NCBI GenBank assembly: GCA_035534315.1 | Contig: DATLSD010000007.1 | Span: forward strand, 1 to 63,760 | Reading direction: 5' to 3' | Length of the DNA: 63,760 nt | From: Elusimicrobiota bacterium | GTDB lineage: Bacteria > Elusimicrobiota > Elusimicrobia > UBA1565 > UBA9628 | In this document: positions 1 to 27,640 of the stretch, in pieces | Layout of the letters: every line of letters starts with the position of its first letter | Numbering within the stretch: position 1 is the first letter of the stretch | Translations under genes and position numbers: made by a program | The notes under the pieces: generated by a model | What the model was told of the DNA's origin: nothing | The model's database searches: none | What the model saw: only the letters and a program-made list of their open reading frames with translations

Positions 1-676
1 AGAACGCCGACGCGTTGACGGAGCTTTGGCTCACGATGTAGCCGTTGGCGCCGGTCAGCGTCAGGCTCGAGCCGGAAATCGTCTGCGACGCCGTAAAAGT
101 ATTGCTTTGGTTCTGGTACGCCAGCGTCGGCGGCAAACTTACGGCGCTGCTAGTCGACACGGCCACGAACCCGGACCCATCATAGTATTCGAGGGCGCCC
201 GTGGCGGTGTCGTACCACAAATCGCCGGCGTTGGGGCTGCCCGGCGCGCTGGCCGCGGAGTTGTACTCCTTGCCTTGCAGCGACGCGACGCTAAACGCAT
301 AAGGAACAGCCGCCAAAGGCTGCAGCGGGCTCAACACCTGCCCATCCACAACGATCTCAAGATAGGTCTGGCCCGAAGAGAAAACGGAGGGCATCAAGGC
401 GGTCGAAGCGCCCAACTGCACCGCCAGAACGCCGTTATTGACGGTGATATTGTTCTGCGTCTCGTGCCACAGCGGGCTTCCCGTGTCGCAGGGCGAATTC
501 GTGGAGCAGATGTAGAAGGCAAAGTTATGAGTTCCTGAGTACGGATTATTGTTAGTATCGGTCAGGCGGCCCTGGAAGCTAATGGTCGTGGGAAGGCTCT
601 GCCCGAAGACGATGCGTGGAGAAGCGCAAAGCGCCAGCACGCTCAGCGCCGCGAAGAACCGGCCGAAGGTCTTCAT
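1..676 (-). CDS. secreted protein with phage-tail-fibre-like repeats (N-terminal 225 codons only; the gene runs off the left edge)
   Basis: Absent from the ORF track because its stop lies outside the window. I checked every codon from ATG (676-674) down to base 2 and found no stop. Translation: MKTFGRFFAALSVLALCASPRIVFGQSLPTTISFQGRLTDTNNNPYSGTHNFAFYI...GDLWYDTATGALEYYDGSGFVAV. It has a Sec-type signal peptide. The ATG overlaps the TGA of the upstream kinase (ATGA). Confidence 0.75.
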   Translation of the reverse strand, partial: MKTFGRFFAALSVLALCASPRIVFGQSLPTTISFQGRLTDTNNNPYSGTHNFAFYICSTNSPCDTGSPLWHETQNNITVNNGVLAVQLGASTALMPSVFSSGQTYLEIVVDGQVLSPLQPLAAVPYAFSVASLQGKEYNSAASAPGSPNAGDLWYDTATGALEYYDGSGFVAVSTSSAVSLPPTLAYQNQSNTFTASQTISGSSLTLTGANGYIVSQSSVNASAF

Positions 677-2097
677 ATGACCGCCTCCCGCGCCGGAACA
701 GGCGCCGGAGCCGGCGCCTGCGCCCGCGCTTTAGGCAGCGTCACGACGAACCGCGATCCTTTTCCGGGCCAGCTCTCGACCCGGATGCCACCGCCCATCA
801 TGACGACGGCGTCGCGCACGATGGAAAGACCTAATCCCGTGCCGGGAATGCCTTCGCCGCTTTTGCCGCGGCGGAATTTCTCGAAAATATGCGGCATATC
901 CTCTTTGGCGATGCCGCGCCCGTTGTCGGCCACCCAGAGCACGACGTCATCTCCGTGCGCCTGCGCTCCGAAGCGCACGGTTCCGCCGTTGGGAGTGTAT
1001 TTCAAAGCGTTGGAAACCAAATTAGTGAGCGCCTGCCGCAGAAGCTCTCTTTCCGCCAGGACGCACGGCGCCGGCTCGGCGGTCACATCCTGGACGGATA
1101 TCTTTTTGATGGCGGCCATGGGAGCGAAAAGCGCCTTTATTTCCCGCGACATCTCAGCGAAATTAACGGCCTGACGGCGAATCTCCCGCTGGCCGTTTTT
1201 CTGCGTTTTAAAGAACGTCAAGGTATTGCCCAGGAGTTCCTGCATCCGCGCCACCGCGGCCAAGAGCGTCATCACCGAACGGCGGCCTTCCTCACCGCTG
1301 GGAAACTTGCCGTCCTCCATGAGCTCCAAGTACGCCTTCAAGCCTCCCAGGGGCGTGTTCATATCATGAGTGAGGGATTGTAGTATGTAATCGCGCCAAC
1401 CGACAAAATCCTTGAGATGACCCGTCATCTCGTTGAAACGTTCCGCCAGCGCCCGGGTCTCCCGCGAGCCGGCGACAGGCACGGCGACGTCAAGACGCCC
1501 GGCTCCGACGGACTGCGCCCCACTGGCCAGCGCGCCCAGCGGCCTGGTCAGGACCGTGGATAAATAGATAGCAGCGATCACGCCAAAAATCAAGAGCAAA
1601 CCGGAGATTTCCAGTGTCCGGCGGATCATGGCGTCCAACGGCTTATCGATTTCTTCCTGAAGAGCGCGGGTCTTGAAGCCCAAGCGAATGCTCACGGGAG
1701 CCGCGGACGCCGGAGCAGCCGCCCTGGCCACCGACTCGCCAGTTGAAACGGGAAACGCGCTGGAGGTCAGTTCCCGGCTGACGAACGTCAGATCCGGAGC
1801 TTCCGGCCCGGACTTATGCGAAAATCCGTTGCTGGTGAATTCCCAGAAAGCCAATTCAGGGTGCTCTTTTTGGAGAAACATCAAGTCGCTGGGCAGCATC
1901 AGAGGGTCCTTCTGGACCAAGGATTCCGCCGCGATGCGGTTGATGCCCTGAATGAGGGCCTCTATCCTATCCCGCGACTGCTGCTTCAGGATGACGCGCT
2001 CGCTCCGAATCACGGTAAACGCGATGGAAGCCACGCTCAAGGCCGTGAGCGCCACGGCCATCAAAGCCACCTGGGTCCTGATGCTCAAGGATTTCAT
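673..2097 (-). CDS. sensor histidine kinase (2 TM, extracytoplasmic loop, HAMP, HisKA, HATPase_c)
   Basis: 474-aa ORF. H-box SLTHDMNTPLGGLKAYLELM, N-box NLVSNALKYTPNGG, G1 DNGRGI, G2 GTGLGLSIV. Hydrophobic helices near aa 10-30 and 165-190. ATGA overlaps at both ends. Confidence 0.9.
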   Translation of the reverse strand: MKSLSIRTQVALMAVALTALSVASIAFTVIRSERVILKQQSRDRIEALIQGINRIAAESLVQKDPLMLPSDLMFLQKEHPELAFWEFTSNGFSHKSGPEAPDLTFVSRELTSSAFPVSTGESVARAAAPASAAPVSIRLGFKTRALQEEIDKPLDAMIRRTLEISGLLLIFGVIAAIYLSTVLTRPLGALASGAQSVGAGRLDVAVPVAGSRETRALAERFNEMTGHLKDFVGWRDYILQSLTHDMNTPLGGLKAYLELMEDGKFPSGEEGRRSVMTLLAAVARMQELLGNTLTFFKTQKNGQREIRRQAVNFAEMSREIKALFAPMAAIKKISVQDVTAEPAPCVLAERELLRQALTNLVSNALKYTPNGGTVRFGAQAHGDDVVLWVADNGRGIAKEDMPHIFEKFRRGKSGEGIPGTGLGLSIVRDAVVMMGGGIRVESWPGKGSRFVVTLPKARAQAPAPAPVPAREAVI

Positions 2098-4049
2098 TGG
2101 GCTTTTAACTCCTCCAGGACCCGCTCCAGGGCTTTGCGGGCTTCCTGATTGGTCGGATCGGCGTCCAAAATCTTGCGGAAGTCCTCGGCCGCCTGCTGGA
2201 AGTCGCGTCGGGTGTAGGCGTCGATGCCTTGGTCAAAGAGCGAGTCGATTTCATCCTTCGATAGAGACGGCTGCGGCGCGGCGTTCCCTTGCCAGACCGC
2301 GCCGTTGAGTCGGCGGATGGAATCGATGTAGTTGTTGATGACCGCCCGCATGGACGGGCTCTTCTCCAAGTCATACGCCTTGTTCCAGGCCCGCAGGGAG
2401 TCGTCAAAGCGGCGCAGGCCCAAGTAAGCGATGCCCGCGTCCTCCCAGGCTTCCAAGTTATTCGGCTGGGAGACCAGGACCTTGTTGGCCAAATCCAGCG
2501 CCAAGCGGTATTGCCGGCTCCGGATGGCCGTGTCGGCCCGGGTCAGCGCCGCGGCCATATCCTGCGACTCGGCCGGCGCCGCATGAACGACCTCGGTGAT
2601 GCCGGTCAAGCGCTGGAGTTCCTCGAAGAACACCCGCAGCCCTTGATCGTCGGGCCGGATGGCCAGCGCGCGGGACACGTCCTCGATGGCGGTGCGGTCG
2701 TCGCCGCCCACGTAGGCCAGCACTCCCTGATGGAGCTCAGCCTGCTCGGGGTCGGCCTTGTAATCGGGAAGAACGGGATAGAGTTGGGCCACAAAATGCA
2801 GCCGCCCGAACTCGCGCAGCAGATTCGGATCCGACGGCGCGATGGCCATGGCTTGGCTGAGCGTGTCGACGGCCTTCTTATACTCGGCCGAAGCCTCCGC
2901 TTGGCGGGCCTGCGCGAGCAGATCGTTAAGTCGGGCTTGGTCTTCCGCGCTCAAGCCCGAAGTCGACGACGCGGTCAGGATGGCGCTCTTGCCTTGGCGC
3001 AGGCGCTCCATCGCTTCCAAGACCATCTCGACCGACTCCTCTTCCTCTGAGGGCTTGCCGAACCGGAAAGTCATCGCGATGCGCTGATCGCCGGCCGTGC
3101 CCGAGACGCTGTTGATGGGCATGTCGAACGCGTAGTCTACTTCGAATCGCGTCGTGCGGTAGGAGATGCCGGCCGCGAACTGGGTGAAGCTCGGGCTGCC
3201 CAAGCTCAGGGCGCCGCGAATGCCGAAATCGCCGAAGAATTGGACCGGGAACCAGCGCTCGGCCGCCAACGTGCCGATTGATTCCCGCGTGAAATAAGGC
3301 GACGCCTCGTTGTCGTATTCCACGACGACGTTGGAGATAAGGCTGCGGTAGTCCACGCCCATCTTCCACGCCATGGGCAAGGTTTCCGGGTTTCTCGGGT
3401 CGTAGGCGACGTTGGGCTGATTGATGTTGGTCGCCTCCACGCCGAAGGAGTAGTGCCGCGCGAAATTATAAAGAGCGCCCAAATCGCCCGAAAAAGCGCT
3501 TTGCACGTTGGTGCCGTTCAATACCGAGTTCTGCGAAGTGAGGGTCCCGCCGCTATCAAGAAGGTTCGCACCGAAGCTGCCGAAAGAGCTGCGCAGATAC
3601 TTGAGGCTGCCGCCCAAATAAAGATCTCCCCCGAAGGGATAATAAGGAAGCTGGCGCCCGTAGGACAAATAAAAACTGTCTTCGCGGTAGAGCGAATTAT
3701 TCAGAGAGAACGAATTCCAAGCCAAACCCAGAGTTCCCTCGCTGGCTTTTTTCCACGCCAACGGCTGGGCGTAGCCCAGAAATGAGGTGCCCAAGTTGGA
3801 GCCGTCGGTCAGGCCCACGTCCAAAAGAGAATAAGACGCGCCCAAACTCGGCCGGCTCAGCGTGGCCAATCCCGCCGGGTTGTAGTAAATGTCATAGACG
3901 TCGTCAGCCACGGCCACAAAAGCTCCTCCCATGCCCGGCGCGCGCGCGCCCGCGCCCAGATCCTCGAACGCAGCCATGGCCGCGGCCGGGCCCACGGCCG
4001 CCAAGCCTAATGCCAAGAGCGCGCTTCGCAGGCCTCGCATGGTTTTCAT
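2094..4049 (-). CDS. outer-membrane beta-barrel (PorV/PorQ/FadL-like N-terminal half) fused to a C-terminal TPR domain
   Basis: 651 aa with a signal peptide (MKTMRGLRSALLALGLAAVGPAAAMA). The barrel signature AFEDLGAGARAPGMGGAFVAVADDVYDIYYNPAGLA is followed by alternating beta-strand-like sequence to about aa 330. After that come TPR-like helical repeats (AYLGLRRFDDSLRAWNKAYDL..., DFQQAAEDFRKILDADPTNQEARKALE). Confidence 0.75.
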   Translation of the reverse strand: MKTMRGLRSALLALGLAAVGPAAAMAAFEDLGAGARAPGMGGAFVAVADDVYDIYYNPAGLATLSRPSLGASYSLLDVGLTDGSNLGTSFLGYAQPLAWKKASEGTLGLAWNSFSLNNSLYREDSFYLSYGRQLPYYPFGGDLYLGGSLKYLRSSFGSFGANLLDSGGTLTSQNSVLNGTNVQSAFSGDLGALYNFARHYSFGVEATNINQPNVAYDPRNPETLPMAWKMGVDYRSLISNVVVEYDNEASPYFTRESIGTLAAERWFPVQFFGDFGIRGALSLGSPSFTQFAAGISYRTTRFEVDYAFDMPINSVSGTAGDQRIAMTFRFGKPSEEEESVEMVLEAMERLRQGKSAILTASSTSGLSAEDQARLNDLLAQARQAEASAEYKKAVDTLSQAMAIAPSDPNLLREFGRLHFVAQLYPVLPDYKADPEQAELHQGVLAYVGGDDRTAIEDVSRALAIRPDDQGLRVFFEELQRLTGITEVVHAAPAESQDMAAALTRADTAIRSRQYRLALDLANKVLVSQPNNLEAWEDAGIAYLGLRRFDDSLRAWNKAYDLEKSPSMRAVINNYIDSIRRLNGAVWQGNAAPQPSLSKDEIDSLFDQGIDAYTRRDFQQAAEDFRKILDADPTNQEARKALERVLEELKAQ

Positions 4050-6523
4050 TAGCGGATCACCACCACGGTGCCGGTCCAGGTCTCCCCGCCGACCTTAATC
4101 TCATAAATATAAACGCCGCGGGCCACGATTTCCCCGTTGGAGCCGCGGCCGTCCCAAGTCAGGCACACATTAAACGTGCCGGGGCCGCCTCCATTGGAGC
4201 AACCCGTCTCGCCCATATCCGCTACGTGGAAACCGCGCACGTCAAACACCTCGCCCGAATAGTTTAGGTCCTGCGGGTTCCCGAAATTAAATTCCACGTG
4301 ATCGTCGCAGCCGTGCTCGGAACTATTGGAACGCCAGGAGCAGCTCGCCACGGTCGGCGTGATGACCTTGGTGGACATATCGGAGCTGGGATCAAACGAC
4401 GCCTGCGCCGGCGCCACGTAGGACTGCAGGCGAAAATCCCCAAGCATGCCCACTTGGCCGGTCACCTCTTGATTGACGGTGTCCACGGTCCCGTCGGCGT
4501 TGACGTTCTGCTGCCCGTTGTACCAGAAAAGCCCGACCGGAGCATTAGACTCGGACAACGGCACGGCGCGGGAAATGCCATCGGCCACGATTTGCCCGTT
4601 CTGGACCTTATAGCCAAGAGCCAAATCGAACATGGCATTGGAAGGCAGCGTCAAGTTCGCGATTTTCTCATTGGACGGCGCCTCGTAGGGCTCAAAGGCC
4701 ACGGACTTGAATATATAAGGAGAGGCCACCACATCCTGAGGCTGATCCACCGCTCGGATTAAAAGCGGCTCTCCCGAAGAATTCCCGTTGGGCTGAACCA
4801 TGCCGGCCATGGTCGCGGGAATCTCGATGCGCGTGATGTTGTCGGAATCAAGGGCGTAGAGATTGCCCTGGGTATCCACGGCCATGGCCGCGTCCGTCGT
4901 CTCGCCGGGGAAAGAATCCTGCGAGACGACTTTGTAGTAGTACACCATTCCCGGGCCCGCCATCGCTTCCTTGTCGCTGACGGCATCGGCCGGCAAAGTC
5001 GAAACCAAGACCCACGTGGGCCGGATAAGCCCGGTCGAGCGGTAGACGTCGTAGCCGCTCATTTCCCATCCGTCCGGAGCCGAAGGATCAGGAAACGCCG
5101 TCCCGTCGGTCTTGGATTTCACCTGGGCCCAGGTGATGGTCATGGAGCTGGCGCTGGGATTGATGGTCGCGGCCAAGCCCGCCGGCGCCAGGGGCGGCAA
5201 ATCAAGCGCCGCCGAGGTCGTCACCCCGATGGAGTAAGCGTTCAACGTGTTCTCGCTGAAAATGCCGAAATATTCCGTCGTATCGAGCGTCAGGCCCGCT
5301 TGCACAAAAGACGGCGTCGAGAGCAGAACGCCGGAAACGACGCCCGTCTGCGTGGAAGCCACCACCGAACCGTCCGGAAGCTTCTGTCCGGGACTGTAGG
5401 CCGTTCCGTTAACCAAATCCGTCGCGCTGATGACCATGCTGCTTACGAGAACCACTGCCCCGTTCTGATTGGGCGGCGTCGGATTAAACCACGTCCAGGT
5501 CAAGGTGATGGTCCGCGCCAGCGGCGCCGAAGAAACCGACACCAGGGTCACAGGTTGGATGCTTTCCGGCAGCGTCACGGTTTCGATAACGGTCTCGAAA
5601 TTCGTCAACCCCTGCCAGTTAAGGCTGGCGAGGTTAAAGTAATAAGTCCCGCCCGGCAACAGGCCATTTACGGTCAGCTGCAAAGTGCCCCCATTGGACG
5701 TCATTGCGGAATTGACGACGGGCCCGCTGTATCCTTGAGCTGTCAGGCTGGCGGCGGTCACCTCGAACCCCGCGGCGGTTCCAGACGCGGCGGGGAAAGA
5801 CCAGGTGAAGGTCGCGCTGGTGTAGGACACGCCTGTCAGCACAGGAGAGACGGGCAGGTTAGCCAAAGTCGAATAGGACGCGGTGGATGAAGTTTCGGCG
5901 AAAAACTTGGTCTCATCCCCAAGGTAAACCCTGGCATAATAGGTCGTGTTGGGAGAGAGATTTTGCAGGGTGTAGGACTGCGTTGAACCCTGAACGGTTG
6001 TCGTCGGAAACTGCACGACGAAGGCGTAGCTGGTCGTCGCGGTCGGATCGAAAAGCGCCGCCTGGGCCGGATCCGAGGAATAGTCGATGCGGTAGTAGCC
6101 GCTCTCAAGAGTTGTGGGAGCCTCGCCATCGAAGCCCGGCGCGGTCCAATTGAGCGTCAGGGTGCCGGTCGAAGTGGAGAGAGCCGCCGTGGAAATCGCC
6201 GTCACGCTGCCGGGCTGGGCGAAAATATTTTCCAACCCTGGCTCGAACGAGTAATTGGCGGAGGAGGAGTAAGAATAGGTGGAAACGCCGAATTCTCCCA
6301 CGGAACTGTCGAGAGAGTAGGACCCGCCGGAAGAAACTCCTCCCGCGTTGGCCACGAGATTGCGCGGAATGTCCTCGCTCGAGCCGAGCATTTTCTGCCC
6401 GGCGCGCGCGGGCAGCGCCCCAAAAGCCGCGGCCAGAACCGCGAAAGCGAAAACGGAAAAAACGCCCTTCCCCGCCTCGAAAAGCAGGCCGGAAAAAGAT
6501 TTCCCGTTTCCGCGCTGGTTCAT
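4049..6523 (-). CDS. large exported surface protein with fibronectin-III-like repeats and a FlgD-Ig / T9SS-CTD-like C-terminal beta-sandwich
   Basis: 824 aa with an N-terminal hydrophobic signal/anchor (VFSVFAFAVLAAAFGALPARA). Repeated FN3-type blocks (LTLNWTAPG..., TFTWSFPAA..., ITLTWTW..., MTITWAQV...YDVYRS). The C-terminus is LTWDGRGSNGEIVARGVYIYEIKVGGETWTGTVVVIR. Its stop shares one base with the next start (TAATG). Confidence 0.8.
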   Translation of the reverse strand: MNQRGNGKSFSGLLFEAGKGVFSVFAFAVLAAAFGALPARAGQKMLGSSEDIPRNLVANAGGVSSGGSYSLDSSVGEFGVSTYSYSSSANYSFEPGLENIFAQPGSVTAISTAALSTSTGTLTLNWTAPGFDGEAPTTLESGYYRIDYSSDPAQAALFDPTATTSYAFVVQFPTTTVQGSTQSYTLQNLSPNTTYYARVYLGDETKFFAETSSTASYSTLANLPVSPVLTGVSYTSATFTWSFPAASGTAAGFEVTAASLTAQGYSGPVVNSAMTSNGGTLQLTVNGLLPGGTYYFNLASLNWQGLTNFETVIETVTLPESIQPVTLVSVSSAPLARTITLTWTWFNPTPPNQNGAVVLVSSMVISATDLVNGTAYSPGQKLPDGSVVASTQTGVVSGVLLSTPSFVQAGLTLDTTEYFGIFSENTLNAYSIGVTTSAALDLPPLAPAGLAATINPSASSMTITWAQVKSKTDGTAFPDPSAPDGWEMSGYDVYRSTGLIRPTWVLVSTLPADAVSDKEAMAGPGMVYYYKVVSQDSFPGETTDAAMAVDTQGNLYALDSDNITRIEIPATMAGMVQPNGNSSGEPLLIRAVDQPQDVVASPYIFKSVAFEPYEAPSNEKIANLTLPSNAMFDLALGYKVQNGQIVADGISRAVPLSESNAPVGLFWYNGQQNVNADGTVDTVNQEVTGQVGMLGDFRLQSYVAPAQASFDPSSDMSTKVITPTVASCSWRSNSSEHGCDDHVEFNFGNPQDLNYSGEVFDVRGFHVADMGETGCSNGGGPGTFNVCLTWDGRGSNGEIVARGVYIYEIKVGGETWTGTVVVIR

Positions 6524-6907
6524 TTAGCTGGGCCTCAAGGACACCTTGAGAATCGAGCGGATGCGGGCGACCAGGACCCGAGGGCTCACCGGCTTGAAGA
6601 GATAATCCTCGGCGCCGACGTCCAAGCCCCGCACCCGCTCGGTCACGTCCCGGGCGTGCCCGGTCAGGATGATGACGGGCACGCTTTTCGCGATCGGGTC
6701 CGCCTTCAATCCGCGGCACACGTCGAACCCGCTCATGTCCGGCAGGTTGACGTCTAGGAGAATCAAATCAGGACGGCACGTCTTGACCTCCCGAAGTCCG
6801 GAAGTTCCATCGGGACAAAGAAAAACCTCGAACCCGTCCGCTTTGAGCACGTCGCGGAACGTTTGCCTTAGAATCTCGTCGTCCTCAACCACCATGATCC
6901 GGTACAT
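6524..6907 (-). CDS. stand-alone response-regulator receiver (canonical OmpR-type REC, no output domain)
   Basis: 127 aa: MYRIMVVEDDE..., phospho-Asp context PDLILLDVNLPDMSG, VIILTG, DYLFKPV. Strong SD (GAGGAGG) 6 nt upstream of the ATG. Its stop directly abuts the next ATG. Confidence 0.92.
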   Translation of the reverse strand: MYRIMVVEDDEILRQTFRDVLKADGFEVFLCPDGTSGLREVKTCRPDLILLDVNLPDMSGFDVCRGLKADPIAKSVPVIILTGHARDVTERVRGLDVGAEDYLFKPVSPRVLVARIRSILKVSLRPS

Positions 6908-6934
6908 GCGGCCTCCTCGAAGCTGCGGCTTATT

Positions 6935-7114
6935 TGAACCTCTATATATATAGATGCTTTTGGTTGCACCACAATTTCATGGCAGAAACTAATTTGTAAC
7001 ATTTTGATTTTAAAATAATGATTATAAATAGTTGATATATTTAAATTTTTATTCTAATTAATAAATCATATAGTCCTTGAATATCCGATATTTTAACGGT
7101 ATGATTTTTACGTC
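6935..7114. promoter_or_regulatory. extremely AT-rich divergent control region between the REC operon (-) and the OmpR-like gene (+)
   Basis: Hand counts: line 7021-7080 has 8/60 G+C and line 6961-7020 has 17/60, versus about 41/60 in ordinary coding lines. Contains a TATATATATA run (about 6943-6954) and three (T/A)TGAT motifs at 7004, 7018 and 7032 (14-nt spacing). Confidence 0.6.
7100..7105 (+). promoter_or_regulatory. -10-like hexamer TATGAT, 9 nt upstream of ATG 7115 (candidate leaderless transcript)
   Basis: TATGAT-ttttacgtc-ATG; no Shine-Dalgarno between the box and the start. Confidence 0.35.
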
Positions 7115-7828
7115 ATGAGCCGACACCTGCTGTTGATCGGATTGACTTCGGAGGATCAGGAGCTTGGCCGCGCCGCGGCCACGGCGGCGGGCTATTCCGC
7201 GGCCGCGTGTCTCACCGGCGTTGAAGCCGCGAAAATCATGCTGGAAAAAGCCGCGGCCGATCACTCCGGAGTGGAGTTGGCGCTGCTGGAAAAAGATCTT
7301 CCCGACATGTCCGCGCCCGCCTGGATTTCCATGATCCGCAAGACCCGCTTCGCGGAAAACCTCCCGGTCGTGGTTTTGAGCCGGCAGAACTGCCCCGAGA
7401 GCCGCATCGTGGAGATGTTCGAGGCGGGCGCCGACGATTTCATCCAAACGCCGTGCGCGCCGCAGGAACTGGCCGCCCGCATCCGCGCGGTCGTGCGCCG
7501 AAGAGCCGCGCGCGGCGAGGAAAGCCCGGTCCTGGAGATCGGACCCATTCTCCTCGATCCGGGCGCCCGGCAATGCCGCGTGCGCGGGAAAATCGCTTCC
7601 CTGCGCCCCCGCGAGTTTGAACTGCTTGACCTGCTGATGAGGAAAGCGGGCCGCACGCTCAGCCGTCCCTATCTGCTGGAGACGATTTGGGGCATGGACA
7701 AAACCGCGAACACCCGCGCCATCGACGTCGGGGTGAGCCGCCTGCGCCAAGCCTTGGGCGCGCGTGCGGGCCGCTGGATTGAGACGGTCGAGCGCTACGG
7801 CTACCGCTTCAAGCTTCCCGAAAGCTGA
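7115..7828 (+). CDS. OmpR/PhoB-family DNA-binding protein with a degenerate (pseudo) receiver domain
   Basis: 237 aa. The winged-helix part is typical (LRPREFELLDLLMRKAGRTLSRPYLLETIWG...RAIDVGVSRLRQAL...VERYGYRF). In the receiver, the acidic pair is replaced by G-L, the phospho-Asp position is Glu (LALLEKDLPDMS) and the conserved Lys is Thr (DFIQTPCAP). Confidence 0.85.
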   Translation: MSRHLLLIGLTSEDQELGRAAATAAGYSAAACLTGVEAAKIMLEKAAADHSGVELALLEKDLPDMSAPAWISMIRKTRFAENLPVVVLSRQNCPESRIVEMFEAGADDFIQTPCAPQELAARIRAVVRRRAARGEESPVLEIGPILLDPGARQCRVRGKIASLRPREFELLDLLMRKAGRTLSRPYLLETIWGMDKTANTRAIDVGVSRLRQALGARAGRWIETVERYGYRFKLPES

Positions 7829-7831
7829 AGC

Positions 7832-8227
7832 CTAGTCGTCGGCTCCGCCGGAGGGCAACGGATGCCGGCCCGCGAAACCTTCCTCAATTGCGTGGTAGTA
7901 GCCGATTTTCTTTTCTCCCCCGCTCCAGCACAAATAAACTTCTTTGCGCCCTAAGCGGAAGGGAAAATCGACGAGCGGAGGGTTATAGCCCTTGGGAAGA
8001 GCTCCCGTATCCGCTACTTTTTGAAACAGAGCGTCAATCTGCGCGGCTAGAAAGCGGATTTGGGCCTTTTCGATTTCAAGATCAGCCGCCCGACCCTGGG
8101 ATTGCTCGAGACGTCCGGCCAATTCGGCCTTCGCCTCGGCGCGATCCGCCAGGGCCGCGATATCCGAGAAAATATTCTCCAATTCCGGAATCAAAGCTTC
8201 CGCTTGCTTAAGAGTAAAATATTTCAT
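7832..8227 (-). CDS. DUF2203-family protein (coiled-coil N-terminus plus conserved C-terminal domain)
   Basis: 131 aa: MKYFTLKQAEALIPELE...PPLVDFPFRLGRKEVYLCWSGGEKKIGYYHAIEEGFAGRHPL. ATGA overlap with the upstream gene. Confidence 0.7.
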   Translation of the reverse strand: MKYFTLKQAEALIPELENIFSDIAALADRAEAKAELAGRLEQSQGRAADLEIEKAQIRFLAAQIDALFQKVADTGALPKGYNPPLVDFPFRLGRKEVYLCWSGGEKKIGYYHAIEEGFAGRHPLPSGGADD

Positions 8228-8601
8228 GTCGGGAAACCCGCGTATTTCATCGCGGCTTTTCGGCGGTGGCGCGCCTTGCGCCGTTTCTGGCGCGCGATAT
8301 CCTGAAGACGACGCGAAGTTTCCGGGGAAAGCCGCATTTCAATCCGGTCCACCAGCTCCCGGAGCGCCAAAAAACGGTTTAGGGCGCGGCTGCGCTCCCG
8401 CTGTACTCGAACGTTTATTTCCAGCGGCGCGTAAGCCAGACGGACGCAGCTGGACGTCTTGTTGATTTTCTGTCCGCCGGGCCCGCCGCCGCGGGTGAAG
8501 CTCTCATCAACAGCCTTGGGATCCACCCCCAAGCGCCGCATGCGGGAAAGGATTTCCTGAAGCTTAGCCGGAGTCACGCCGAAGTTTTCCCGCAGCTCCA
8601 T
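8224..8601 (-). CDS. small GGQ-motif peptidyl-tRNA hydrolase (RF-1 domain, ArfB-like) with a basic C-terminal tail
   Basis: Start moved to the in-frame ATG at 8601 (MELRENFG...), just downstream of the sdhB stop at 8616. Motifs: GGPGGQKINKTSSCVRLAY...VQRERSRALNR. Tail: RQKRRKARHRRKAAMK. Confidence 0.8.
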   Translation of the reverse strand: MELRENFGVTPAKLQEILSRMRRLGVDPKAVDESFTRGGGPGGQKINKTSSCVRLAYAPLEINVRVQRERSRALNRFLALRELVDRIEMRLSPETSRRLQDIARQKRRKARHRRKAAMKYAGFPT

Positions 8602-14332: not shown

Positions 14333-15598
14333 ATGGCGGGCAAAATCATCATCGTGGACGACGACGACATCGCCGGAGATCTGTCCCGCGCCCTGCTCAA
14401 GGACGCCGGCTTCGAAGTGGAACTTCTGACCGAGAGCCGCCTGGCCCTCAACCGCATCCGCCAGGCGCGCCCCGACATCGTCGTGCTCGACATCCTGATG
14501 CCGGGAATCGACGGCCTGAGCCTTTGCCGCCAGATCAAGAACGATCCCGACCTCCCCGGAATGAAGGTCGCCATCGTCTCGGCCAAGTCCTTCAGCGCGG
14601 ATAGGGCAAGGGCCAAGGAGTCCGGCGCGGACATCTTCATTTCAAAACCCTATGACGTAGAAACCTTTTCCGCGCAGATCGGATCCCTTCTGGAGCCGAA
14701 AGAGCGCGCGCCCATTCCGGCCCACCCGGAACCCTTGGATGATTCGCCCAATCCGATTTTTCGCGTTTCGATATGGGGAAGCCGGAGCCGTTCCGAAACG
14801 GAACAGGCCCCCTCCCGCTATGGCCGCAATACGCCCTGCGTCGGCGTCGAAGCCGAGGATCACATGCTTCTTTTCGACGCCGGAACCGGCGCCGCCGCCG
14901 CGGGGCGGGAACTCGAATCTTCAGCCAGGCACAAGGAGATATGGATATTCCTCTCGCACTTTCACGCCGCTCACATCGAGGGTCTCGCCGAGTTTTCGCC
15001 TCTGGCTCAGGCCGGCGGCGCCGTGCACCTGTGCGCGGCGCCGGAAACGGGCACGGGCTTGGCCGAGCTTGTGCGCCCAATACTCGAAACGAGCGCCCGC
15101 CGCGGCCTGAAAATCCAGGCGAAAACGGATCTCTATGAACTGCGCGGCGAGCGCTATGAAATTTTGCCGGGCGTCGCCATGACGCCCTTTTACGCCAATC
15201 ATCCCGGCACGACTCTCGGCTTTATACTGGAAGCCGGCGGCCGGAAAATAGCGTACTGCCCTGACGATGAAATAAACGGCGAGAGCGTCCAGGCTCTGCA
15301 GGATCACGATGAAAAAATAGCCCGGCTCTACTCGGACGCCGACCTGGTCATCCATGACGCGCGCTACACCCGCGAAGACTACCCGCAATTCGAAGGAAAC
15401 GGCCACTCCAACTTTCTAAATACGGTCGATCTGGCCGGAAAATGCCGTGTAAAAAGGCTCGTCTTGTTCCATCAAGACGCGCGCTATTCCGACCAGGAAC
15501 TCGATGAGATGGGCGCCGAGGCCGCCAAGAGGGCGCAGGAAAAAGGATATCCCACCAAAATCGCCGTCGCCAGCGAAGGCTTGCGCGTCGCGGTTTAG
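14333..15598 (+). CDS. response regulator receiver fused to an MBL-fold (metallo-beta-lactamase-like) hydrolase domain
   Basis: REC: IIIVDDDD, DIVVLDILMPGIDG, FISKPY. MBL part: LLFDAGTG...IFLSHFHAAHIEGL (an HxHxDH motif with Asp replaced by Ala)...HDARY...GHSN...LFHQD. Confidence 0.85.
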   Translation: MAGKIIIVDDDDIAGDLSRALLKDAGFEVELLTESRLALNRIRQARPDIVVLDILMPGIDGLSLCRQIKNDPDLPGMKVAIVSAKSFSADRARAKESGADIFISKPYDVETFSAQIGSLLEPKERAPIPAHPEPLDDSPNPIFRVSIWGSRSRSETEQAPSRYGRNTPCVGVEAEDHMLLFDAGTGAAAAGRELESSARHKEIWIFLSHFHAAHIEGLAEFSPLAQAGGAVHLCAAPETGTGLAELVRPILETSARRGLKIQAKTDLYELRGERYEILPGVAMTPFYANHPGTTLGFILEAGGRKIAYCPDDEINGESVQALQDHDEKIARLYSDADLVIHDARYTREDYPQFEGNGHSNFLNTVDLAGKCRVKRLVLFHQDARYSDQELDEMGAEAAKRAQEKGYPTKIAVASEGLRVAV

Positions 15599-21606: not shown

Positions 21607-22437
21607 ATGGACGAGCAAAACCCGGAATCCGCCGATTCCCCCAAACGCCGAACTCACGGCGCCGCCGTCGCGACCGCGGCCCTTGTCGCTTTGGCTGCGG
21701 CCGCCTCTTTTCTGGTCTACTACCGCTACCGCCAGGAAGTCAAAAGCTCCTCAACGACAAATCTGAGCGGGTTTGACATCACGCAAAACCAAGCCCCCGC
21801 CGCGCCGCAAGAGCCCGTTTCTCCCGCGCCCGAAACGGCGCCTCAGCCGGCCGATGGCGGGCTATCCCTGATCCGCGGAGGATTTTCGCAGCCCGCCCAA
21901 AACCCGGCCGCGTCACCCGCGCAGCAAGCCGCCCTGTCGCTCACCGCCGCCTGCCGCGCCCATGAGAGAGAAGTCCAGGCCCTGGCCGCCGCCTACACGC
22001 GCAAATACCCCATCATCGCCCAATACGGCCGCGACTGGATGCGCTATCCGGATCTGCGGCGGCTCGACCTGGAGTACGCGGAAAACCACGACCCGGTCGC
22101 GTTCATCAAAGGGGTCGCGGCATCCCCTAATTTCCGCATCCTGGTGCGCAAGTACGCCACCCAGCCCGCGATTCAATCTTTCGCAAAAGACGTGGTAACC
22201 CACGCGCCGGCCGACGTGCTCGCCGCCGCGTCAAGCTACCTCAACAACAACCAAAACATGACGTCTCTGGCCGACACGATATTGACGGCCCTGGGGCTTC
22301 CTCCGGGGATTATCGGCACGAACGGCTCGGGCAATCCCCAAATCAACGCGGGAGCGATGATTCAATCCCTGCTTAACAACCCGCCGAGCCAGCCGCAGCA
22401 ACAGCAGAACGGGGCGCCGACCCTGTCGCCTCCCTAA
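21607..22437 (+). CDS. hypothetical membrane-anchored protein with a Pro/Ala/Gln-rich linker
   Basis: 276 aa, single TM (AAVATAALVALAAAASFLVYY). I recognise no family. Confidence 0.6.
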   Translation: MDEQNPESADSPKRRTHGAAVATAALVALAAAASFLVYYRYRQEVKSSSTTNLSGFDITQNQAPAAPQEPVSPAPETAPQPADGGLSLIRGGFSQPAQNPAASPAQQAALSLTAACRAHEREVQALAAAYTRKYPIIAQYGRDWMRYPDLRRLDLEYAENHDPVAFIKGVAASPNFRILVRKYATQPAIQSFAKDVVTHAPADVLAAASSYLNNNQNMTSLADTILTALGLPPGIIGTNGSGNPQINAGAMIQSLLNNPPSQPQQQQNGAPTLSPP

Positions 22438-22443
22438 CTTGGG

Positions 22444-22725
22444 CTACTGATTCGCGGAACAGGGCCCGTTCGCCGGCATGTTTGGATTCGAATTGCAGGT
22501 CCATTGGCACGTGCTTTGGCTTTGGCAGGGAACCGTGTGCTGCTGCGTGCATTGGTTGACGATGGATTGCGAGGGGGCGGATGACGCGCTGCTTGATCCG
22601 AAACTGCAGGAAGGACATCCCGCGGACGCGCCGCATCCGGCGATTCCCGTCGTCATGCCCAGGCAGGCCAGACCCAGTAAAAACGCGAAGGTGCTCCCCA
22701 TCAAAGCCGCTTTTTTGACGTTCAT
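22444..22725 (-). CDS. small Cys-rich lipoprotein (93-aa precursor, about 63-aa mature part with 8 Cys)
   Basis: MNVKKAALMGSTFAFLLGLACLGMTTGIAGC: signal peptide plus lipobox IAG|C. Mature part: CGASAGCPSCSFGSSSASS...CTQQHTVPCQSQSTCQWTCNSNPNMPANGPCSANQ. Near-ideal SD GGAAGGAGAG, with its AGGAG core 7 nt before the ATG. It has its own promoter (next feature). Confidence 0.7.
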   Translation of the reverse strand: MNVKKAALMGSTFAFLLGLACLGMTTGIAGCGASAGCPSCSFGSSSASSAPSQSIVNQCTQQHTVPCQSQSTCQWTCNSNPNMPANGPCSANQ

Positions 22726-22755
22726 AAAATCTCTCCTTCCGTTCCGTCAGCCATT

Positions 22756-22784
22756 AGTTTATGGCCGCTCGGCCTGATTGTCAA
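22756..22784 (-). promoter_or_regulatory. sigma70-type promoter TTGACA-17 nt-TAAACT for the Cys-rich lipoprotein gene
   Basis: Minus strand: -35 TTGACA (22784-22779), a 17-nt spacer, and -10 TAAACT (22761-22756), about 30 nt upstream of ATG 22725. Confidence 0.5.
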
Positions 22785-22832
22785 CCCTCGCTGCCGCTTT
22801 TATCCGACTTTTTACCCAGTTTAGGCGCTGCC

Positions 22833-25289: not shown

Positions 25290-25323
25290 TTTAGCACTTT
25301 TACCGAAGGGAGAACGGCGAAAA

Positions 25324-25638
25324 ATGGCTTACGTTATCACGGATAAATGCCTCGGCGAAGTCTACGCCGACTGCGTGGAAGTCTGCCCGGTTGAATGCAT
25401 CCACCCCGGCGATTACAAGAACGAAGGCTTCATGATCATCGATCCGGAGGTCTGCATCGACTGCGGCGTCTGCCTGCCGGAATGCCCCATCGGCGCCATC
25501 GTGGGCTCCACGGACGAAAGCCCGGAGTGGGCCAAAATCAACGCGGAATTGGCCCCCAATTTCAAGAACAATCCGAAAGTCACGCCCAGGCCGGCCAACG
25601 ACCCGCCGCGAAAATCCGAAAACAAGCTCGTCCGTTAG
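25324..25638 (+). CDS. ferredoxin (7Fe-type pattern)
   Basis: Start at ATG 25324 with SD AAGGGAGAA. MAYVITDKCLGEVYADCVEVCPVECIHPG...DPEVCIDCGVCLPECPIGAI. Confidence 0.9.
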   Translation: MAYVITDKCLGEVYADCVEVCPVECIHPGDYKNEGFMIIDPEVCIDCGVCLPECPIGAIVGSTDESPEWAKINAELAPNFKNNPKVTPRPANDPPRKSENKLVR

Positions 25639-25703
25639 GGCGCCTTTGCGGCGCGCTGATTGTTTTCCGGCTCCTGACGCTGCCGGCAGGCTCGGGGTTT
25701 TGC

Positions 25704-27593: not shown

Positions 27594-27640
27594 GGCGCGG
27601 CCTCGTTAGATTTCCTTAAATAAAGAGGTAAAATCAATCG

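What the first reader, a model, noticed from the sequence alone, without database searches (positions are those of the whole stretch)
1..6907. Five translationally coupled envelope genes: REC, FN3 giant protein with a CTD-like tail, PorV-like barrel fused to TPR, HAMP kinase, tail-fibre-like exoprotein
Every junction is 0 to -4 nt: TAA|ATG at 6523/6524, TAATG at 4047-4051, and ATGA at 2094-2097 and 673-676. The five genes are therefore one coupled unit. The 824-aa protein ends in ...LTWDGRGSNGEIVARGVYIYEIKVGGETWTGTVVVIR, which looks like a FlgD-Ig / type-A T9SS C-terminal sorting domain. The next gene starts with AFEDLGAGARAPGMGGAFVAVADDVYDIYYNPAGLA, the hallmark of PorV/PorQ/FadL-like shuttle barrels. 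Unusually, this barrel carries a C-terminal TPR domain of about 300 aa. No other T9SS core genes (PorK/L/M/N, Sov, PorU-like) are in the window. The unit also has its own kinase and receiver, and ends in a second secreted protein with phage-tail-fibre-like repeats. My reading is a self-contained module of CTD cargo plus a dedicated barrel for surface display or export, under a private two-component switch. I do not recognise this arrangement as a described system.
Basis: partly seen in the sequence, partly recalled or inferred. Interest (0 to 1): 0.7.

Follow-up and report, generated by a model that had tools for sequence, protein, structure and literature searches.

The report
Elusimicrobial surface-protein, barrel and kinase module
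This is a conserved six-gene envelope module of Elusimicrobiota that uses two parts known from the Bacteroidota type IX secretion system (a type-B sorting tail and its PorP/SprF-like barrel, here fused to a TPR domain), together with its own sensor kinase and a long adhesive fibre, in a phylum where no such secretion system has been described.

Summary
Five minus-strand genes have junctions of 0, -1, -4 and -4 nt. The fifth is cut by the contig end.

The tail of the 824-aa FN3 protein is a diverged type B T9SS sorting domain (TIGR04131/CHU_C), not type A or FlgD-Ig. The barrel belongs to the PorV/PorQ/PorP superfamily and sits where a cognate PorP/SprF shuttle sits, directly downstream of its type-B cargo.

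The model of the barrel protein has 14 strands, is closest to solved PorV, and carries a TPR domain of about 310 aa, inferred to be periplasmic.

The module also includes a divergent, atypical OmpR regulator. The order OmpR | REC, FN3-CTD, barrel-TPR, HAMP kinase, fibre recurs in about 20 Elusimicrobiota loci at 38-95% barrel identity. The core (type-B cargo, barrel-TPR, kinase) recurs in about 15 more distant loci. Flanking genes differ between loci.

The fibre has an N-domain like that of Bdellovibrio MAT fibres and a variable tip.

No T9SS core gene is in the ORFs of the window that I scanned. I could not check the rest of the genome. I found no literature on T9SS parts in this phylum.

Verdict: a new variant of a known kind. 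Interest is moderate to high.

The parts
7115..7828 (+). Divergently transcribed OmpR-family regulator (237 aa) with a degenerate receiver domain.
   Evidence: Trans_reg_C 3e-21 and a weak Response_reg match, 1.3e-8. Conserved in this position in all close-group loci that extend far enough. The alignment of 16 orthologues lacks the acidic DD pair. The phospho-acceptor position is E in the window clade, G or S in some orthologues and D in others.
6908..7114 (.). AT-rich divergent control region: 207 nt, 28.5% GC in a window of about 61% GC.
   Evidence: Composition; sequence. One sigma-70-like match faces the OmpR gene at 7077-7105. No function was tested.
6524..6907 (-). Stand-alone CheY-like receiver (127 aa), first gene of the operon and the likely phospho-acceptor of the kinase.
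   Evidence: Response_reg 5e-29. The canonical DD, D (LILLDVNLPDMSG), T and K residues are visible in the sequence. Conserved in this position in the close group.
4049..6523 (-). Secreted 824-aa protein made of tandem FN3-like beta-sandwich domains: signal peptide, a low-confidence linker at aa 36-99, then about five sandwich domains.
   Evidence: fn3 6e-14. AF2 model at pLDDT 73.7, all-beta. Foldseek returns only FN3 arrays. 73 homologues, all named ones from Elusimicrobia.
4052..4381 (-). C-terminal sorting domain (about aa 715-824): a diverged type B T9SS CTD. The NGDGxND loop is replaced by a Cys-containing insert, and there is a second Cys-containing insert.
   Evidence: Alignment. 47 of 54 orthologues match TIGR04131, but the window protein itself does not. 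For the window tail alone: FlgD_ig 0.046, CHU_C 0.15, Por_Secre_tail 0.15. The only four Cys in the protein are at aa 728, 739, 775 and 787.
3045..4049 (-). Signal peptide plus a 14-stranded outer-membrane barrel of the PorV/PorQ/PorP (FadL-like) superfamily, in the PorP/SprF position (aa 1-335).
   Evidence: PorV_fam 3e-14 and PorP/SprF 6e-7, both sub-cutoff. 58 of 58 family members match PorV_fam and 55 of 58 match PorP/SprF. AF2 model at pLDDT 86.7 with 14 strands. Top Foldseek hits are PorV chains 8gl6_F and 6h3i_F at TM 0.61-0.63, then FadL and TodX.
2097..3032 (-). C-terminal TPR domain fused to the barrel (aa about 340-651, about 15 helices), inferred to be periplasmic.
   Evidence: TPR_2, TPR_9, TPR_19 and other TPR models. 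Helices at aa 340-650 at high pLDDT. Of the 150 best barrel relatives, nearly all carry a C-terminal extension. Periplasmic location is inferred from the even strand number.
673..2097 (-). Membrane HAMP histidine kinase (474 aa) with a periplasmic loop of about 130 aa between two TM segments.
   Evidence: HAMP 9e-11, HisKA 9e-11, HATPase_c 2e-29. A kinase follows the barrel-TPR gene in 30 of 31 loci that extend far enough: directly in most, after a gap of about 0.6-1 kb in L020 and L033, and after one extra TPR gene in L087.
1..676 (-). 5' part (225 codons) of a giant fibre-like adhesin gene with a signal peptide and an N-terminal domain like that of Bdellovibrio MAT fibres. It is cut by the contig end.
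   Evidence: Bdello_MAT_N 1.6e-8, sub-cutoff, and 1e-9 to 3e-7 in three orthologues. In 11 of 12 loci checked the orthologous ORF runs off the end of the held sequence, and most database homologues are partial or on short contigs. Complete examples are 1009 aa (L013) and 1407 aa with a fibrinogen-like tip (L086).

Best explanation
This is a conserved Elusimicrobiota cell-envelope module. Which steps are shown and which are inferred is set out below.

**Shown by sequence, models and comparison**
- A Sec-exported FN3 protein of 824 aa ends in a diverged type B T9SS-type sorting domain.
- The next gene encodes its cognate PorP/SprF-like 14-stranded outer-membrane barrel.
- This barrel is covalently fused to a TPR domain.
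- A HAMP kinase follows the barrel gene in 30 of 31 loci that extend far enough, directly in most of them.
- A canonical single-domain receiver opens the operon.
- An atypical OmpR regulator is transcribed divergently.
- The operon ends in a giant fibre with a MAT-like N-domain and a variable tip.

**Inferred, by analogy with PorP-PG1035, SprF-SprB and PorP-PorE**
- The barrel binds the cargo's CTD and holds the FN3 protein at the cell surface.
- The fused TPR lies in the periplasm and does what the TPR of a separate PorE-like partner does in Bacteroidota: it acts as a periplasmic scaffold.

**Inferred, by analogy with the PorA CTD acting as a ligand of PorY**
- The kinase's periplasmic loop reads the state of the barrel-TPR/CTD complex.
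- It phosphorylates the CheY-like receiver, which adjusts expression of the module, perhaps through the phosphorylation-defective OmpR protein.

**Speculative**
- The FN3/barrel complex is the surface element that docks the fibre's MAT-like N-domain.

The channel that takes the cargo across the outer membrane is not identified.
For: **Type B tail**
- 47 of 54 orthologues match TIGR04131, best E 3e-8.
- PF13585 (CHU_C) is precomputed in most of the 73 homologues, and NCBI names some of them 'gliding motility-associated C-terminal domain' proteins.
- The tail alignment shows the canonical motifs.

**Barrel**
- The model has 14 strands at pLDDT 86.7.
- The best structural matches are PorV in the SprA complexes 8gl6 and 6h3i.
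- NCBI names many homologues 'T9SS membrane protein PorP/SprF'.

**Cognate pairing**
- In 31 of the 34 loci where an upstream ORF could be read, the gene just upstream of the barrel-TPR gene ends in a type-B-style tail. 27 of them have a recognisable TPNGDGxND motif.
- PorV-like barrels of other phyla fetched in the same scan lack such a neighbour.
- The same adjacency, with functional dependence, is described in F. johnsoniae (PMC12618676).

**TPR**
- PorP binds PorE, whose N-terminal domains are a TPR and a beta-propeller. Six F. johnsoniae porP-like genes lie next to porE-like genes (PMC9143113).

**Kinase link**
- tblastn synteny covers the 38 loci that hold a full-length or end-truncated barrel-TPR match, plus L086 and L087.
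- The precedent for a CTD signalling to a kinase is PMC12152298.

**Module autonomy**
- Flanking genes differ between loci: nusA-infB and allantoin genes in L086, acetate kinase in L002, uvrB in L003, the succinate dehydrogenase genes in the window.
- Two full modules occur in single MAGs.

**Fibre**
-. PMC10769870 states that the MAT N-domain presumably binds an unidentified surface element.
Against: - The window's own proteins do not reach the curated cut-off of any T9SS model. PorV_fam scores 53 bits against a cut-off of 90. PorP/SprF scores 29 against 90.55. The type B CTD model gives no hit.
- The barrel scores at least as well against PorV/PorQ models as against PorP/SprF, so the PorP label rests on gene context rather than sequence.
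- The window clade has lost the NGDGxND motif. The corresponding motif class is required for secretion in F. johnsoniae (PMC12618676).
- No interaction was tested: CTD with barrel, TPR with kinase, or fibre with FN3 protein.
- A 14-stranded plugged barrel cannot by itself explain how an 824-aa folded protein or a fibre thousands of residues long crosses the outer membrane.
- The fibre is absent from the distant group of loci, so it is not part of the conserved core.
Confidence: 0.6

Rival explanations
1. This is an ordinary T9SS cargo and shuttle pair. The genome encodes a complete T9SS elsewhere (SprA/Sov translocon, GldKLMN/PorKLMN and others). The FN3 protein is simply one type-B substrate with its PorP/SprF shuttle, and the kinase regulates it.
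For: - The type-B tail, the PorP-like barrel and their adjacency are exactly as in Bacteroidota (PMC12618676).
- Other Elusimicrobia proteins are named 'T9SS type A sorting domain' by NCBI and sit near FadL/UPF0164-like barrels.
- The type-B motifs are strongly conserved across phyla, which suggests a conserved recognition machinery.
Against: - The reviews and primary papers I read describe T9SS as confined to Bacteroidota or the FCB group (PMC12618676, PMC7463736, PMC12398890).
- Full-text searches for Elusimicrobia or Elusimicrobiota with T9SS terms found no paper that reports T9SS components in the phylum.
- No T9SS core gene was found in the scanned ORFs of this 64-kb window, or in the flanks of the seven related loci for which called genes and Pfam families were listed.
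- The rest of the genome could not be examined, so this evidence is weak.
Confidence: 0.3
2. This is a self-sufficient, T9SS-independent surface-display system. The barrel-TPR protein is both receptor and translocation or assembly factor for its adjacent CTD cargo. The logic is that of Slam/type XI secretion (periplasmic TPR plus 14-stranded barrel plus neighbouring substrate), built from T9SS-type parts.
For: - The architecture is a 14-strand barrel plus TPR, with the cargo gene adjacent.
- There is a sub-cutoff TPR_Slam match, 1.5e-5.
- Slam proteins have a periplasmic TPR domain and a 14-stranded barrel, lie next to their substrates, and are necessary and sufficient for display in E. coli (PMC5449769).
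- The module moves as a unit between genomic contexts.
- No T9SS has been reported in this phylum.
Against: - The domain order is the reverse of Slam, and there is no DUF560 match.
- The barrel model has the PorV/FadL-type N-terminal hatch segment. In T9SS, PorV and PorP are shuttles, not channels (PMC9143113, PMC12618676).
- There is no experimental evidence.
Confidence: 0.2
3. This is a periplasmic or outer-membrane signalling device rather than a display system. The FN3-CTD protein stays in the periplasm or at the barrel. Its CTD, or the TPR domain, is the ligand of the HAMP kinase. The module serves to sense envelope or surface state and to control the fibre gene.
For: - The most conserved partner of the barrel-TPR, after the CTD gene, is the kinase.
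- In P. gingivalis the PorA CTD binds and activates the kinase PorY in the periplasm (PMC12152298).
- The operon carries two regulators.
Against: - All characterised type-B CTD proteins are surface-located (PMC9143113).
- Cargo size in the distant group ranges from at least 608 aa to at least 3139 aa. That range fits adhesins better than a dedicated ligand.
- This reading is not exclusive of the main explanation.
Confidence: 0.15
4. The barrel is a FadL-type importer of hydrophobic compounds, and its adjacency to the CTD protein is incidental.
For: FadL, TodX and CymD are among the top structural matches. There are weak Toluene_X and TraF_2 matches.
Against: - PorV ranks first structurally, and PorV/PorP models score far better than Toluene_X: 3e-14 against 0.045.
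- The type-B CTD gene lies immediately upstream in nearly all loci across 30-95% barrel identity.
Confidence: 0.03

Closest known systems
Type-B CTD substrate with its cognate PorP/SprF-like shuttle or anchor in the Bacteroidota T9SS (SprB-SprF and Fjoh_3952-Fjoh_3951 in F. johnsoniae; PG1035-PorP in P. gingivalis)
   Same: - A C-terminal type-B sorting domain on a secreted, repeat-rich surface protein.
- A 14-stranded FadL/PorV-family barrel encoded directly downstream.
- One barrel per cargo, with paralogous pairs within one genome.
   Different: - The phylum is Elusimicrobiota, not Bacteroidota or the FCB group.
- The barrel is fused to a TPR domain of about 310 aa.
- The pair is followed by a HAMP kinase and embedded in a two-component operon.
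- No SprA or GldKLMN is known for the host.
- The window clade has replaced the NGDGxND loop with Cys-containing inserts.
- All HMM scores are below the curated cut-offs.
PorP-PorE complex of P. gingivalis, and porP-like/porE-like gene pairs of F. johnsoniae
   Same: A PorP-type barrel is coupled to a periplasmic protein that contains a TPR domain and is thought to scaffold or tether the complex (PMC9143113).
   Different: - Here the TPR is part of the same polypeptide.
- There is no WD40, CRD or OmpA_C peptidoglycan-binding domain.
- Homology between the two TPR domains was not testable.
PorA CTD signalling to the PorXY two-component system (P. gingivalis)
   Same: A CTD-bearing cargo is functionally tied to a membrane histidine kinase. 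In P. gingivalis the CTD is the kinase's periplasmic ligand (PMC12152298).
   Different: - In P. gingivalis the genes are dispersed, PorX carries an effector domain and the output goes through SigP.
- Here the kinase is encoded next to the barrel, and the partners are a CheY-like receiver and an atypical OmpR protein.
- The link here is genomic only.
Slam / type XI secretion (TPR plus DUF560 14-stranded barrel with adjacent substrate)
   Same: A periplasmic TPR domain and a 14-stranded barrel lie in one protein. The substrate gene is adjacent, and the substrate is recognised through its C-terminal domain (PMC5449769, PMC8406197).
   Different: - The domain order is reversed.
- The barrel belongs to the PorV/PorP family, not DUF560.
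- The cargo is not a lipoprotein.
- Slam is proteobacterial.
- The resemblance is architectural, not homologous.
Bdellovibrio mosaic adhesive trimer (MAT) fibres
   Same: - A signal peptide followed by a conserved beta-rich N-domain (NF053851, E about 1e-9).
- A long repetitive, tail-fibre-like shaft.
- Variable C-terminal tips, for example the fibrinogen-like tip in L086.
   Different: - Scores are below the curated cut-off (30-38 bits against 60).
- No S74 domain was detected.
- The proteins are much longer (up to more than 2858 aa).
- They are encoded in an operon with a barrel and a kinase.
- Trimer formation was not tested.

Membership tests
T9SS type B sorting domain (TIGR04131 / PF13585 CHU_C) | Match to the family HMM. 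| tested here: inconclusive
   The window protein has no hit at E<=1e-3, and its tail alone gives CHU_C at 0.15. However, 47 of 54 full-length orthologues match TIGR04131, best E 3e-8, and the window tail aligns column for column with theirs.
T9SS type B sorting domain (TIGR04131 / PF13585 CHU_C) | Conserved motifs within the last ~100 aa (the five conserved blocks A-E of PMC12618676). I did not map them one-to-one onto this alignment. | tested here: inconclusive
   Orthologue tails show conserved blocks: ITPNGDGxND; a FDNP...SG block; IYDxRGxxV; WDG...G..VP.GVYxYqI; GTvVViR. In the window clade the NGDGxND block is replaced by TVASCSWRSNSSEHGCDDH, and the other blocks are kept.
T9SS type B sorting domain (TIGR04131 / PF13585 CHU_C) | The domain lies at the extreme C-terminus of a Sec-exported protein, with a porP/sprF-like gene directly downstream. 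| tested here: met
   A signal peptide and a terminal ...GTVVVIR* are present. The barrel gene overlaps the stop codon. The same adjacency holds in 31 of the 34 loci where an upstream ORF could be read.
T9SS type B sorting domain (TIGR04131 / PF13585 CHU_C) | Secretion depends on the T9SS translocon SprA/Sov. | not testable with these tools
   For the window tail alone, Por_Secre_tail scores 0.15 and FlgD_ig 0.046. Only 5 of 54 orthologues touch TIGR04183, against 47 of 54 for type B.
PorP/SprF family (TIGR03519 / PF11751) | HMM score above the curated cut-off. | tested here: not met
   The window protein scores 29.2 bits against a cut-off of 90.55. 55 of 58 family members match at E<=1e-3, best 3e-18. 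PF11751 is precomputed in most homologues, and NCBI names many of them PorP/SprF.
PorP/SprF family (TIGR03519 / PF11751) | A 14-stranded FadL-family outer-membrane barrel. | tested here: met
   The AF2 model at pLDDT 86.7 has 14 strands between aa 68 and 329. Foldseek ranks PorV, FadL and TodX at the top.
PorP/SprF family (TIGR03519 / PF11751) | The gene lies next to, and the protein binds, a cognate type-B CTD protein. | tested here: inconclusive
   Adjacency is met. Binding was not testable, because no multimer prediction was available.
PorV (NF033710) and PorV/PorQ family (NF033709) | HMM score above the cut-off, and a partner that carries a type A CTD. | tested here: not met
   PorV_fam scores 53.3 bits against a cut-off of 90, and T9SS_OM_PorV scores 16.6 against 250. 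The partner tail is type B. Structural similarity to PorV is real, at TM 0.61-0.63.
Type IX secretion system (as a system) | Core components SprA/Sov, GldK/L/M/N (PorK/L/M/N), PorU, PorZ, SprE and SprT are present. | tested here: inconclusive
   None was found among the 34 window ORFs scanned, or in the flanks of the seven related loci listed with Pfam families. The rest of the genome was not examined.
Slam / T11SS | An N-terminal periplasmic TPR domain followed by a DUF560 14-stranded barrel. | tested here: not met
   The domain order is reversed and there is no DUF560 match. TPR_Slam scores 25.8 bits against a cut-off of 35.2.
Bdellovibrio MAT fibre family (NF053851 N-domain) | A conserved beta-rich N-domain directly after the signal peptide, scoring above the cut-off. 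| tested here: inconclusive
   The window protein scores 34.5 bits against a cut-off of 60, E 1.6e-8. Three orthologues score 30-38 bits at E 3e-7 to 1e-9, always at residues about 3-91.
Two-component system (HAMP histidine kinase plus receiver) | HAMP, HisKA and HATPase_c in the kinase, and a receiver with the conserved acidic pocket. | tested here: met
   All three kinase domains and Response_reg score above their cut-offs. The 127-aa receiver has DD, D, T and K. The OmpR-type protein lacks the DD pair and has E at the acceptor position.

The most novel reading that the evidence does not exclude
Elusimicrobiota lack the SprA/GldKLMN machine. On this reading the module is an autonomous surface-display system with three features.
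- The PorP-like barrel, through its fused periplasmic TPR, captures the type-B tail of its neighbour and mounts that protein on the cell surface.
- The FN3 platform in turn docks the MAT-like fibre.
- Occupancy of the complex is reported to a private kinase.

If so, type-B CTD/PorP pairs are an older, self-standing unit that the Bacteroidota T9SS later recruited. It would also name a candidate for the unknown surface anchor of MAT-type fibres.
Probability: 0.2. Interest if true: 0.85.

Novelty: new variant of a known kind. Interest (0 to 1): 0.6.

Why it matters
T9SS and its two sorting signals are treated as a hallmark of Bacteroidota and the FCB group. Here a type-B tail and its PorP/SprF-like partner are conserved as a portable module across a different phylum. 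The barrel is fused to the kind of TPR domain that a separate partner (PorE) supplies in Bacteroidota, and it is tied to a histidine kinase.

This matters in three ways.
- It gives a natural test of whether PorP-type barrels can work without the SprA translocon.
- It offers a genomic parallel to the recently found CTD-to-kinase signalling of PorA and PorY.
- It suggests a candidate anchor for MAT-like adhesive fibres, whose attachment point in Bdellovibrio is unknown.

If the host genomes turn out to have a full T9SS, the finding shrinks. It would then be an extension of the T9SS host range plus an unusual regulated shuttle.

Tried and rejected
- **Type A CTD, FlgD_ig or PorV reading.** Rejected on HMM counts: type B 47 of 54 against type A 5 of 54, and on gene context.
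- **Tail alone against Pfam and NCBIfam at E<=10.** Only sub-threshold hits. The cause is that the window clade has replaced the NGDGxND loop.
- **Foldseek of the FN3 protein model.** Only generic FN3 arrays and nothing CTD-specific. PMC12618676 states that no type-B CTD structure had been solved at its date.
- **PDB sequence search with the barrel-TPR profile.** Only designed or generic TPR proteins.
- **Literature searches for T9SS in Elusimicrobia or Elusimicrobiota.** Nothing relevant.
- **Type-B motifs next to PorV-like barrels of other phyla fetched in the same scan.** No type-B-tailed gene lies next to any of the barrels.
- **Promoter and terminator scan of 1-8300.** Weak consensus matches only, with no convincing internal terminator.
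- **Repeats in the AT-rich intergenic region.** Nothing beyond low-complexity AT matches.
- **Exact look-up of the window's barrel protein.** Not on record.
- **T9SS core genes elsewhere in the genome.** The collections cannot be queried by name or by genome.
- **Multimer prediction of CTD with barrel.** Not available.

Full report
**1. Observation**

The minus strand of 1-6907 carries five co-oriented ORFs:
- REC, 6524-6907.
- An 824-aa protein, 4049-6523.
- A 651-aa protein, 2094-4049.
- A 474-aa kinase, 673-2097.
- An ORF that starts at 676 and leaves the window at base 1, with 225 codons visible.

Upstream of REC lies a 207-nt intergenic region of 28.5% GC in a window of about 61% GC. Beyond it is a divergent OmpR-type regulator at 7115-7828.

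I scanned 27 of about 40 candidate ORFs in the rest of the window. They are chromosomal housekeeping genes, including the succinate dehydrogenase/fumarate reductase genes, aconitase, DnaE, ALAD and PFK. No T9SS core component is among them.

**2. Source organism**

Every named homologue of the barrel-TPR protein and of the FN3 protein comes from an Elusimicrobia or Elusimicrobiota MAG. So do the hits in the species-representative genome scan that hold a full-length or end-truncated match, apart from a few records titled only 'bacterium'. The closest contigs are DATLUA010000008 (95% barrel identity), DAIDHS010000016 (91%) and JAGWJU010000013 (91%).

**3. The cargo tail is type B, not type A**

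The window's tail alone gives only sub-threshold hits: FlgD_ig 0.046, CHU_C 0.15, Por_Secre_tail 0.15 and the C-terminal end of PorU 1e-4.

The protein has 73 homologues. Those closer than 1e-100 align over their full length at 35-85% identity, and most carry PF13585 (CHU_C). NCBI names several of them 'gliding motility-associated C-terminal domain-containing protein'.

I scanned 54 aligned members one by one. 47 match TIGR04131, the T9SS type B sorting domain (best E 3e-8). Only 5 match the type A model.

The tail consensus is ...ITPNGDGLND..F.FDNP.DS..SGKIYD.RG..V..M....L.WDGK..G..VP.GVY.YQI.AEGKTF.GT.VVIR, the usual type-B pattern.

In the window's own clade (at least 64% identity) the NGDGLND loop is replaced by a Cys-containing insert, TVASCSWRSNSSEHGCDDH. 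A second Cys-containing insert follows, GETGCSNGGGPGTFNVC. The protein's only four Cys are at aa 728, 739, 775 and 787, all in these inserts. This explains why the family HMMs miss the window protein.

The AF2 model at pLDDT 73.7 is a string of about five beta-sandwich domains plus the tail. Foldseek finds only FN3 arrays.

**4. The barrel**

The window protein matches PorV_fam at 3e-14 and PorP/SprF (TIGR03519) at 6e-7, both below their curated cut-offs. Across the family, 58 of 58 members match PorV_fam, 55 of 58 match PorP/SprF and 32 of 58 match PorV proper. By sequence, then, the barrel belongs to the PorV/PorQ/PorP superfamily and has no clean sub-assignment.

The AF2 model (58-sequence alignment, pLDDT 86.7) has these parts:
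- An N-terminal hatch-like segment.
- 14 strands between aa 68 and 329.
- About 15 helices of TPR between aa 340 and 650.

The best structural matches are PorV in the SprA translocon complexes 8gl6_F and 6h3i_F, at TM 0.61-0.63 normalised to the target. FadL, TodX and CymD follow.

With an even number of strands, both ends of the barrel are on the periplasmic side. The TPR domain should therefore be periplasmic. This is an inference.

A phmmer search with the barrel alone against 1.84 billion representative proteins gave 196 relatives at E<=1e-30 and 5228 at E<=1e-3. Nearly all of the best 150 have the barrel at residues about 1-340 followed by a C-terminal extension, with total lengths of about 430-1175 aa. 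The fusion is thus the rule for this family, not a one-off.

**5.

I ran tblastn with the six window proteins against the 38 related loci that hold a full-length or end-truncated barrel-TPR match, and later against L086 and L087.

The close group has 38-95% barrel identity and comprises L001-L018, L031, L086 and L087. It shows the full order OmpR(-) | REC, FN3-CTD, barrel-TPR, kinase, fibre wherever the contig reaches that far. The one partial exception is L013, where no receiver hit lies in the expected position.

The distant group has 30-35% barrel identity and comprises L019-L030, L032-L035 and L067. Where the contig reaches, it keeps the order CTD protein, barrel-TPR, kinase. A receiver sometimes follows the kinase, and there is no fibre.

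Among the 34 loci where an upstream ORF could be read, the gene immediately upstream of the barrel-TPR gene ends in a type-B-style tail in 31. In 27 of them a TPNGDGxND motif is recognisable. In the distant group the cargo ranges from at least 608 aa to at least 3139 aa.

PorV-like barrels of other phyla fetched in the same scan (Ignavibacteria, Bacteroidetes, Desulfobacterales, Aquificota and others) have no type-B-tailed neighbour.

Flanking genes differ from locus to locus: nusA-infB and allantoin genes in L086, acetate kinase in L002, uvrB in L003 and the succinate dehydrogenase genes here. Two MAGs each carry two loci of the module: both span all six genes in JACRDO01, and both are cut within the barrel gene in JACRDR01. 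The module is therefore a portable, paralogising unit. Its conserved core is cargo, barrel-TPR and kinase.

**6. Regulators**

The 127-aa receiver is canonical, with DD, the acceptor D in LILLDVNLPDMSG, and T and K.

The divergent OmpR-type protein has a weak receiver match. In 16 aligned orthologues it lacks the DD pair. Its acceptor position is E in the window clade, G or S in some orthologues and D in others. It is an atypical receiver and is unlikely to be phosphorylated in the usual way. Kinase to CheY-like receiver is the probable phosphorelay. How the output reaches DNA is open.

**7. The fifth gene**

The N-terminus (a signal peptide plus a beta-rich domain of about 110 aa) matches the N-domain model of the Bdellovibrio mosaic adhesive trimer family at 1.6e-8. 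Three orthologues match at 3e-7 to 1e-9. All are below the curated cut-off.

The L003 orthologue is more than 1785 aa of tail-fibre-like repeats, for example ASPTFTGTV..GLGNVDNTSDANKPVS. L002 has more than 2858 codons. L013 is complete at 1009 aa. L086 is complete at 1407 aa and ends in a fibrinogen-like globular domain. None has a CTD.

Most database homologues are annotated 'partial' or sit on very short contigs, and in 11 of 12 loci the ORF runs off the end of the held sequence. The repeats probably break assemblies, which would also explain why this window ends where it does.

**8. Comparison with what is known**

- In F. johnsoniae, type-B substrates need cognate PorP/SprF-like shuttles that are encoded directly downstream (PMC12618676).
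[quoted passage not shown] PorP binds PorE, whose N-terminal domains are a TPR and a beta-propeller. Six F. johnsoniae porP-like genes lie beside porE-like genes. [quoted passage not shown]
- The CTD of PorA binds and activates the kinase PorY in the periplasm (PMC12152298).

The Elusimicrobial module brings these three relationships together in one operon and, for PorP with TPR, in one polypeptide.

Architecturally it also mirrors Slam/T11SS, which has a periplasmic TPR, a 14-stranded barrel and an adjacent substrate. The domain order is reversed, however, and the barrel family is unrelated (PMC5449769, PMC8406197).

**9. What could not be settled**

The papers I read describe T9SS as confined to Bacteroidota or the FCB group (PMC12618676, PMC7463736, PMC12398890). 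No paper I found mentions T9SS parts in Elusimicrobia. I could not examine the rest of any genome that carries the module.

Other Elusimicrobia proteins are labelled as type A sorting-domain proteins and lie near small FadL/UPF0164-like barrels. A cryptic T9SS-like apparatus in the phylum therefore cannot be excluded. No protein-protein contact was tested.

**10. Verdict**

The best reading is a type-B cargo with its PorP-like anchor or shuttle, carrying a built-in PorE-like TPR and a dedicated two-component switch, and co-expressed with a MAT-like fibre. I put the confidence at about 0.6 for the whole, and higher for the identity of the parts.

Novelty is a new variant of a known kind. Interest is 0.6. 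It would rise to about 0.85 if whole-genome scans show that these bacteria lack SprA and GldKLMN.

Noticed in passing
window 1-676 (-); L002-L018 fibre ORFs: The window (a whole contig of 63,760 bp) ends inside the repetitive fibre gene. Most fibre homologues in the database are annotated 'partial' or sit on very short contigs, and in 11 of 12 related loci the ORF runs off the end of the held sequence. The repeats probably break short-read assemblies.
   Followed up: partly
window 4052-4381 (-), aa 715-824 of the FN3 protein: The window clade (at least 64% identity) has replaced the type-B NGDGxND loop with two inserts. These hold the protein's only four cysteines (aa 728, 739, 775, 787), which may form two disulfides. 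More distant orthologues keep the canonical loop.
   Followed up: partly
window 7115-7828 (+): The divergent OmpR-family regulator has a degenerate receiver. It has no DD pair in any of 16 orthologues. The acceptor position is E here, G or S in some orthologues and D in others.
   Followed up: partly
L084 1-18638 (GCA_028688015.1, Elusimicrobiales) and L085: This is a different Elusimicrobial cluster. It holds an 8467-aa protein, a 1150-aa protein, a 1319-aa FN3 protein that NCBI names 'T9SS type A sorting domain', a 574-aa protein, a 314-aa UPF0164/FadL-like barrel and a 637-aa protein. It suggests that pairing cargo with a small barrel is a wider theme in the phylum.
   Followed up: no
L087 12160-13449: One variant of the module has an extra stand-alone TPR protein of 429 aa between the barrel-TPR gene and the kinase gene. 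Another subgroup has shorter barrel-TPR proteins of about 535-557 aa, for example in L086.
   Followed up: no
L006 + L009 (JACRDO01); L015 + L017 (JACRDR01): Two paralogous copies of the module occur in single MAGs. In JACRDO01 both span all six genes. In JACRDR01 both are cut within the barrel gene by the contig ends. This is consistent with one barrel and one kinase per cargo.
   Followed up: partly
window 22000-26000: This stretch has lower GC (0.565-0.576 against about 0.62). It contains a 511-aa ORF (23754-25289, -) with no Pfam match and a 306-aa ORF (22833-23753, -) with a weak alpha/beta-hydrolase match. The ORFs 21607-22437, 43760-44995 and 54699-55523 also have no Pfam match.
   Followed up: no
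window 25395-29545 (+): Two large cell-wall hydrolase genes lie in tandem. One is a 732-aa protein with a C39-like peptidase domain and an NlpC/P60 domain. The other is a 634-aa protein with an Amidase_3 domain.
   Followed up: no
window 14333-15598 (+); 48117-50324 (-); 44992-48267 (-): Three other ORFs stand out: a response regulator fused to a metallo-beta-lactamase-fold domain, a patatin-like phospholipase with a cyclic-nucleotide-binding domain, and a 1091-aa HEAT-repeat protein whose ORF overlaps it by about 150 nt.
   Followed up: no
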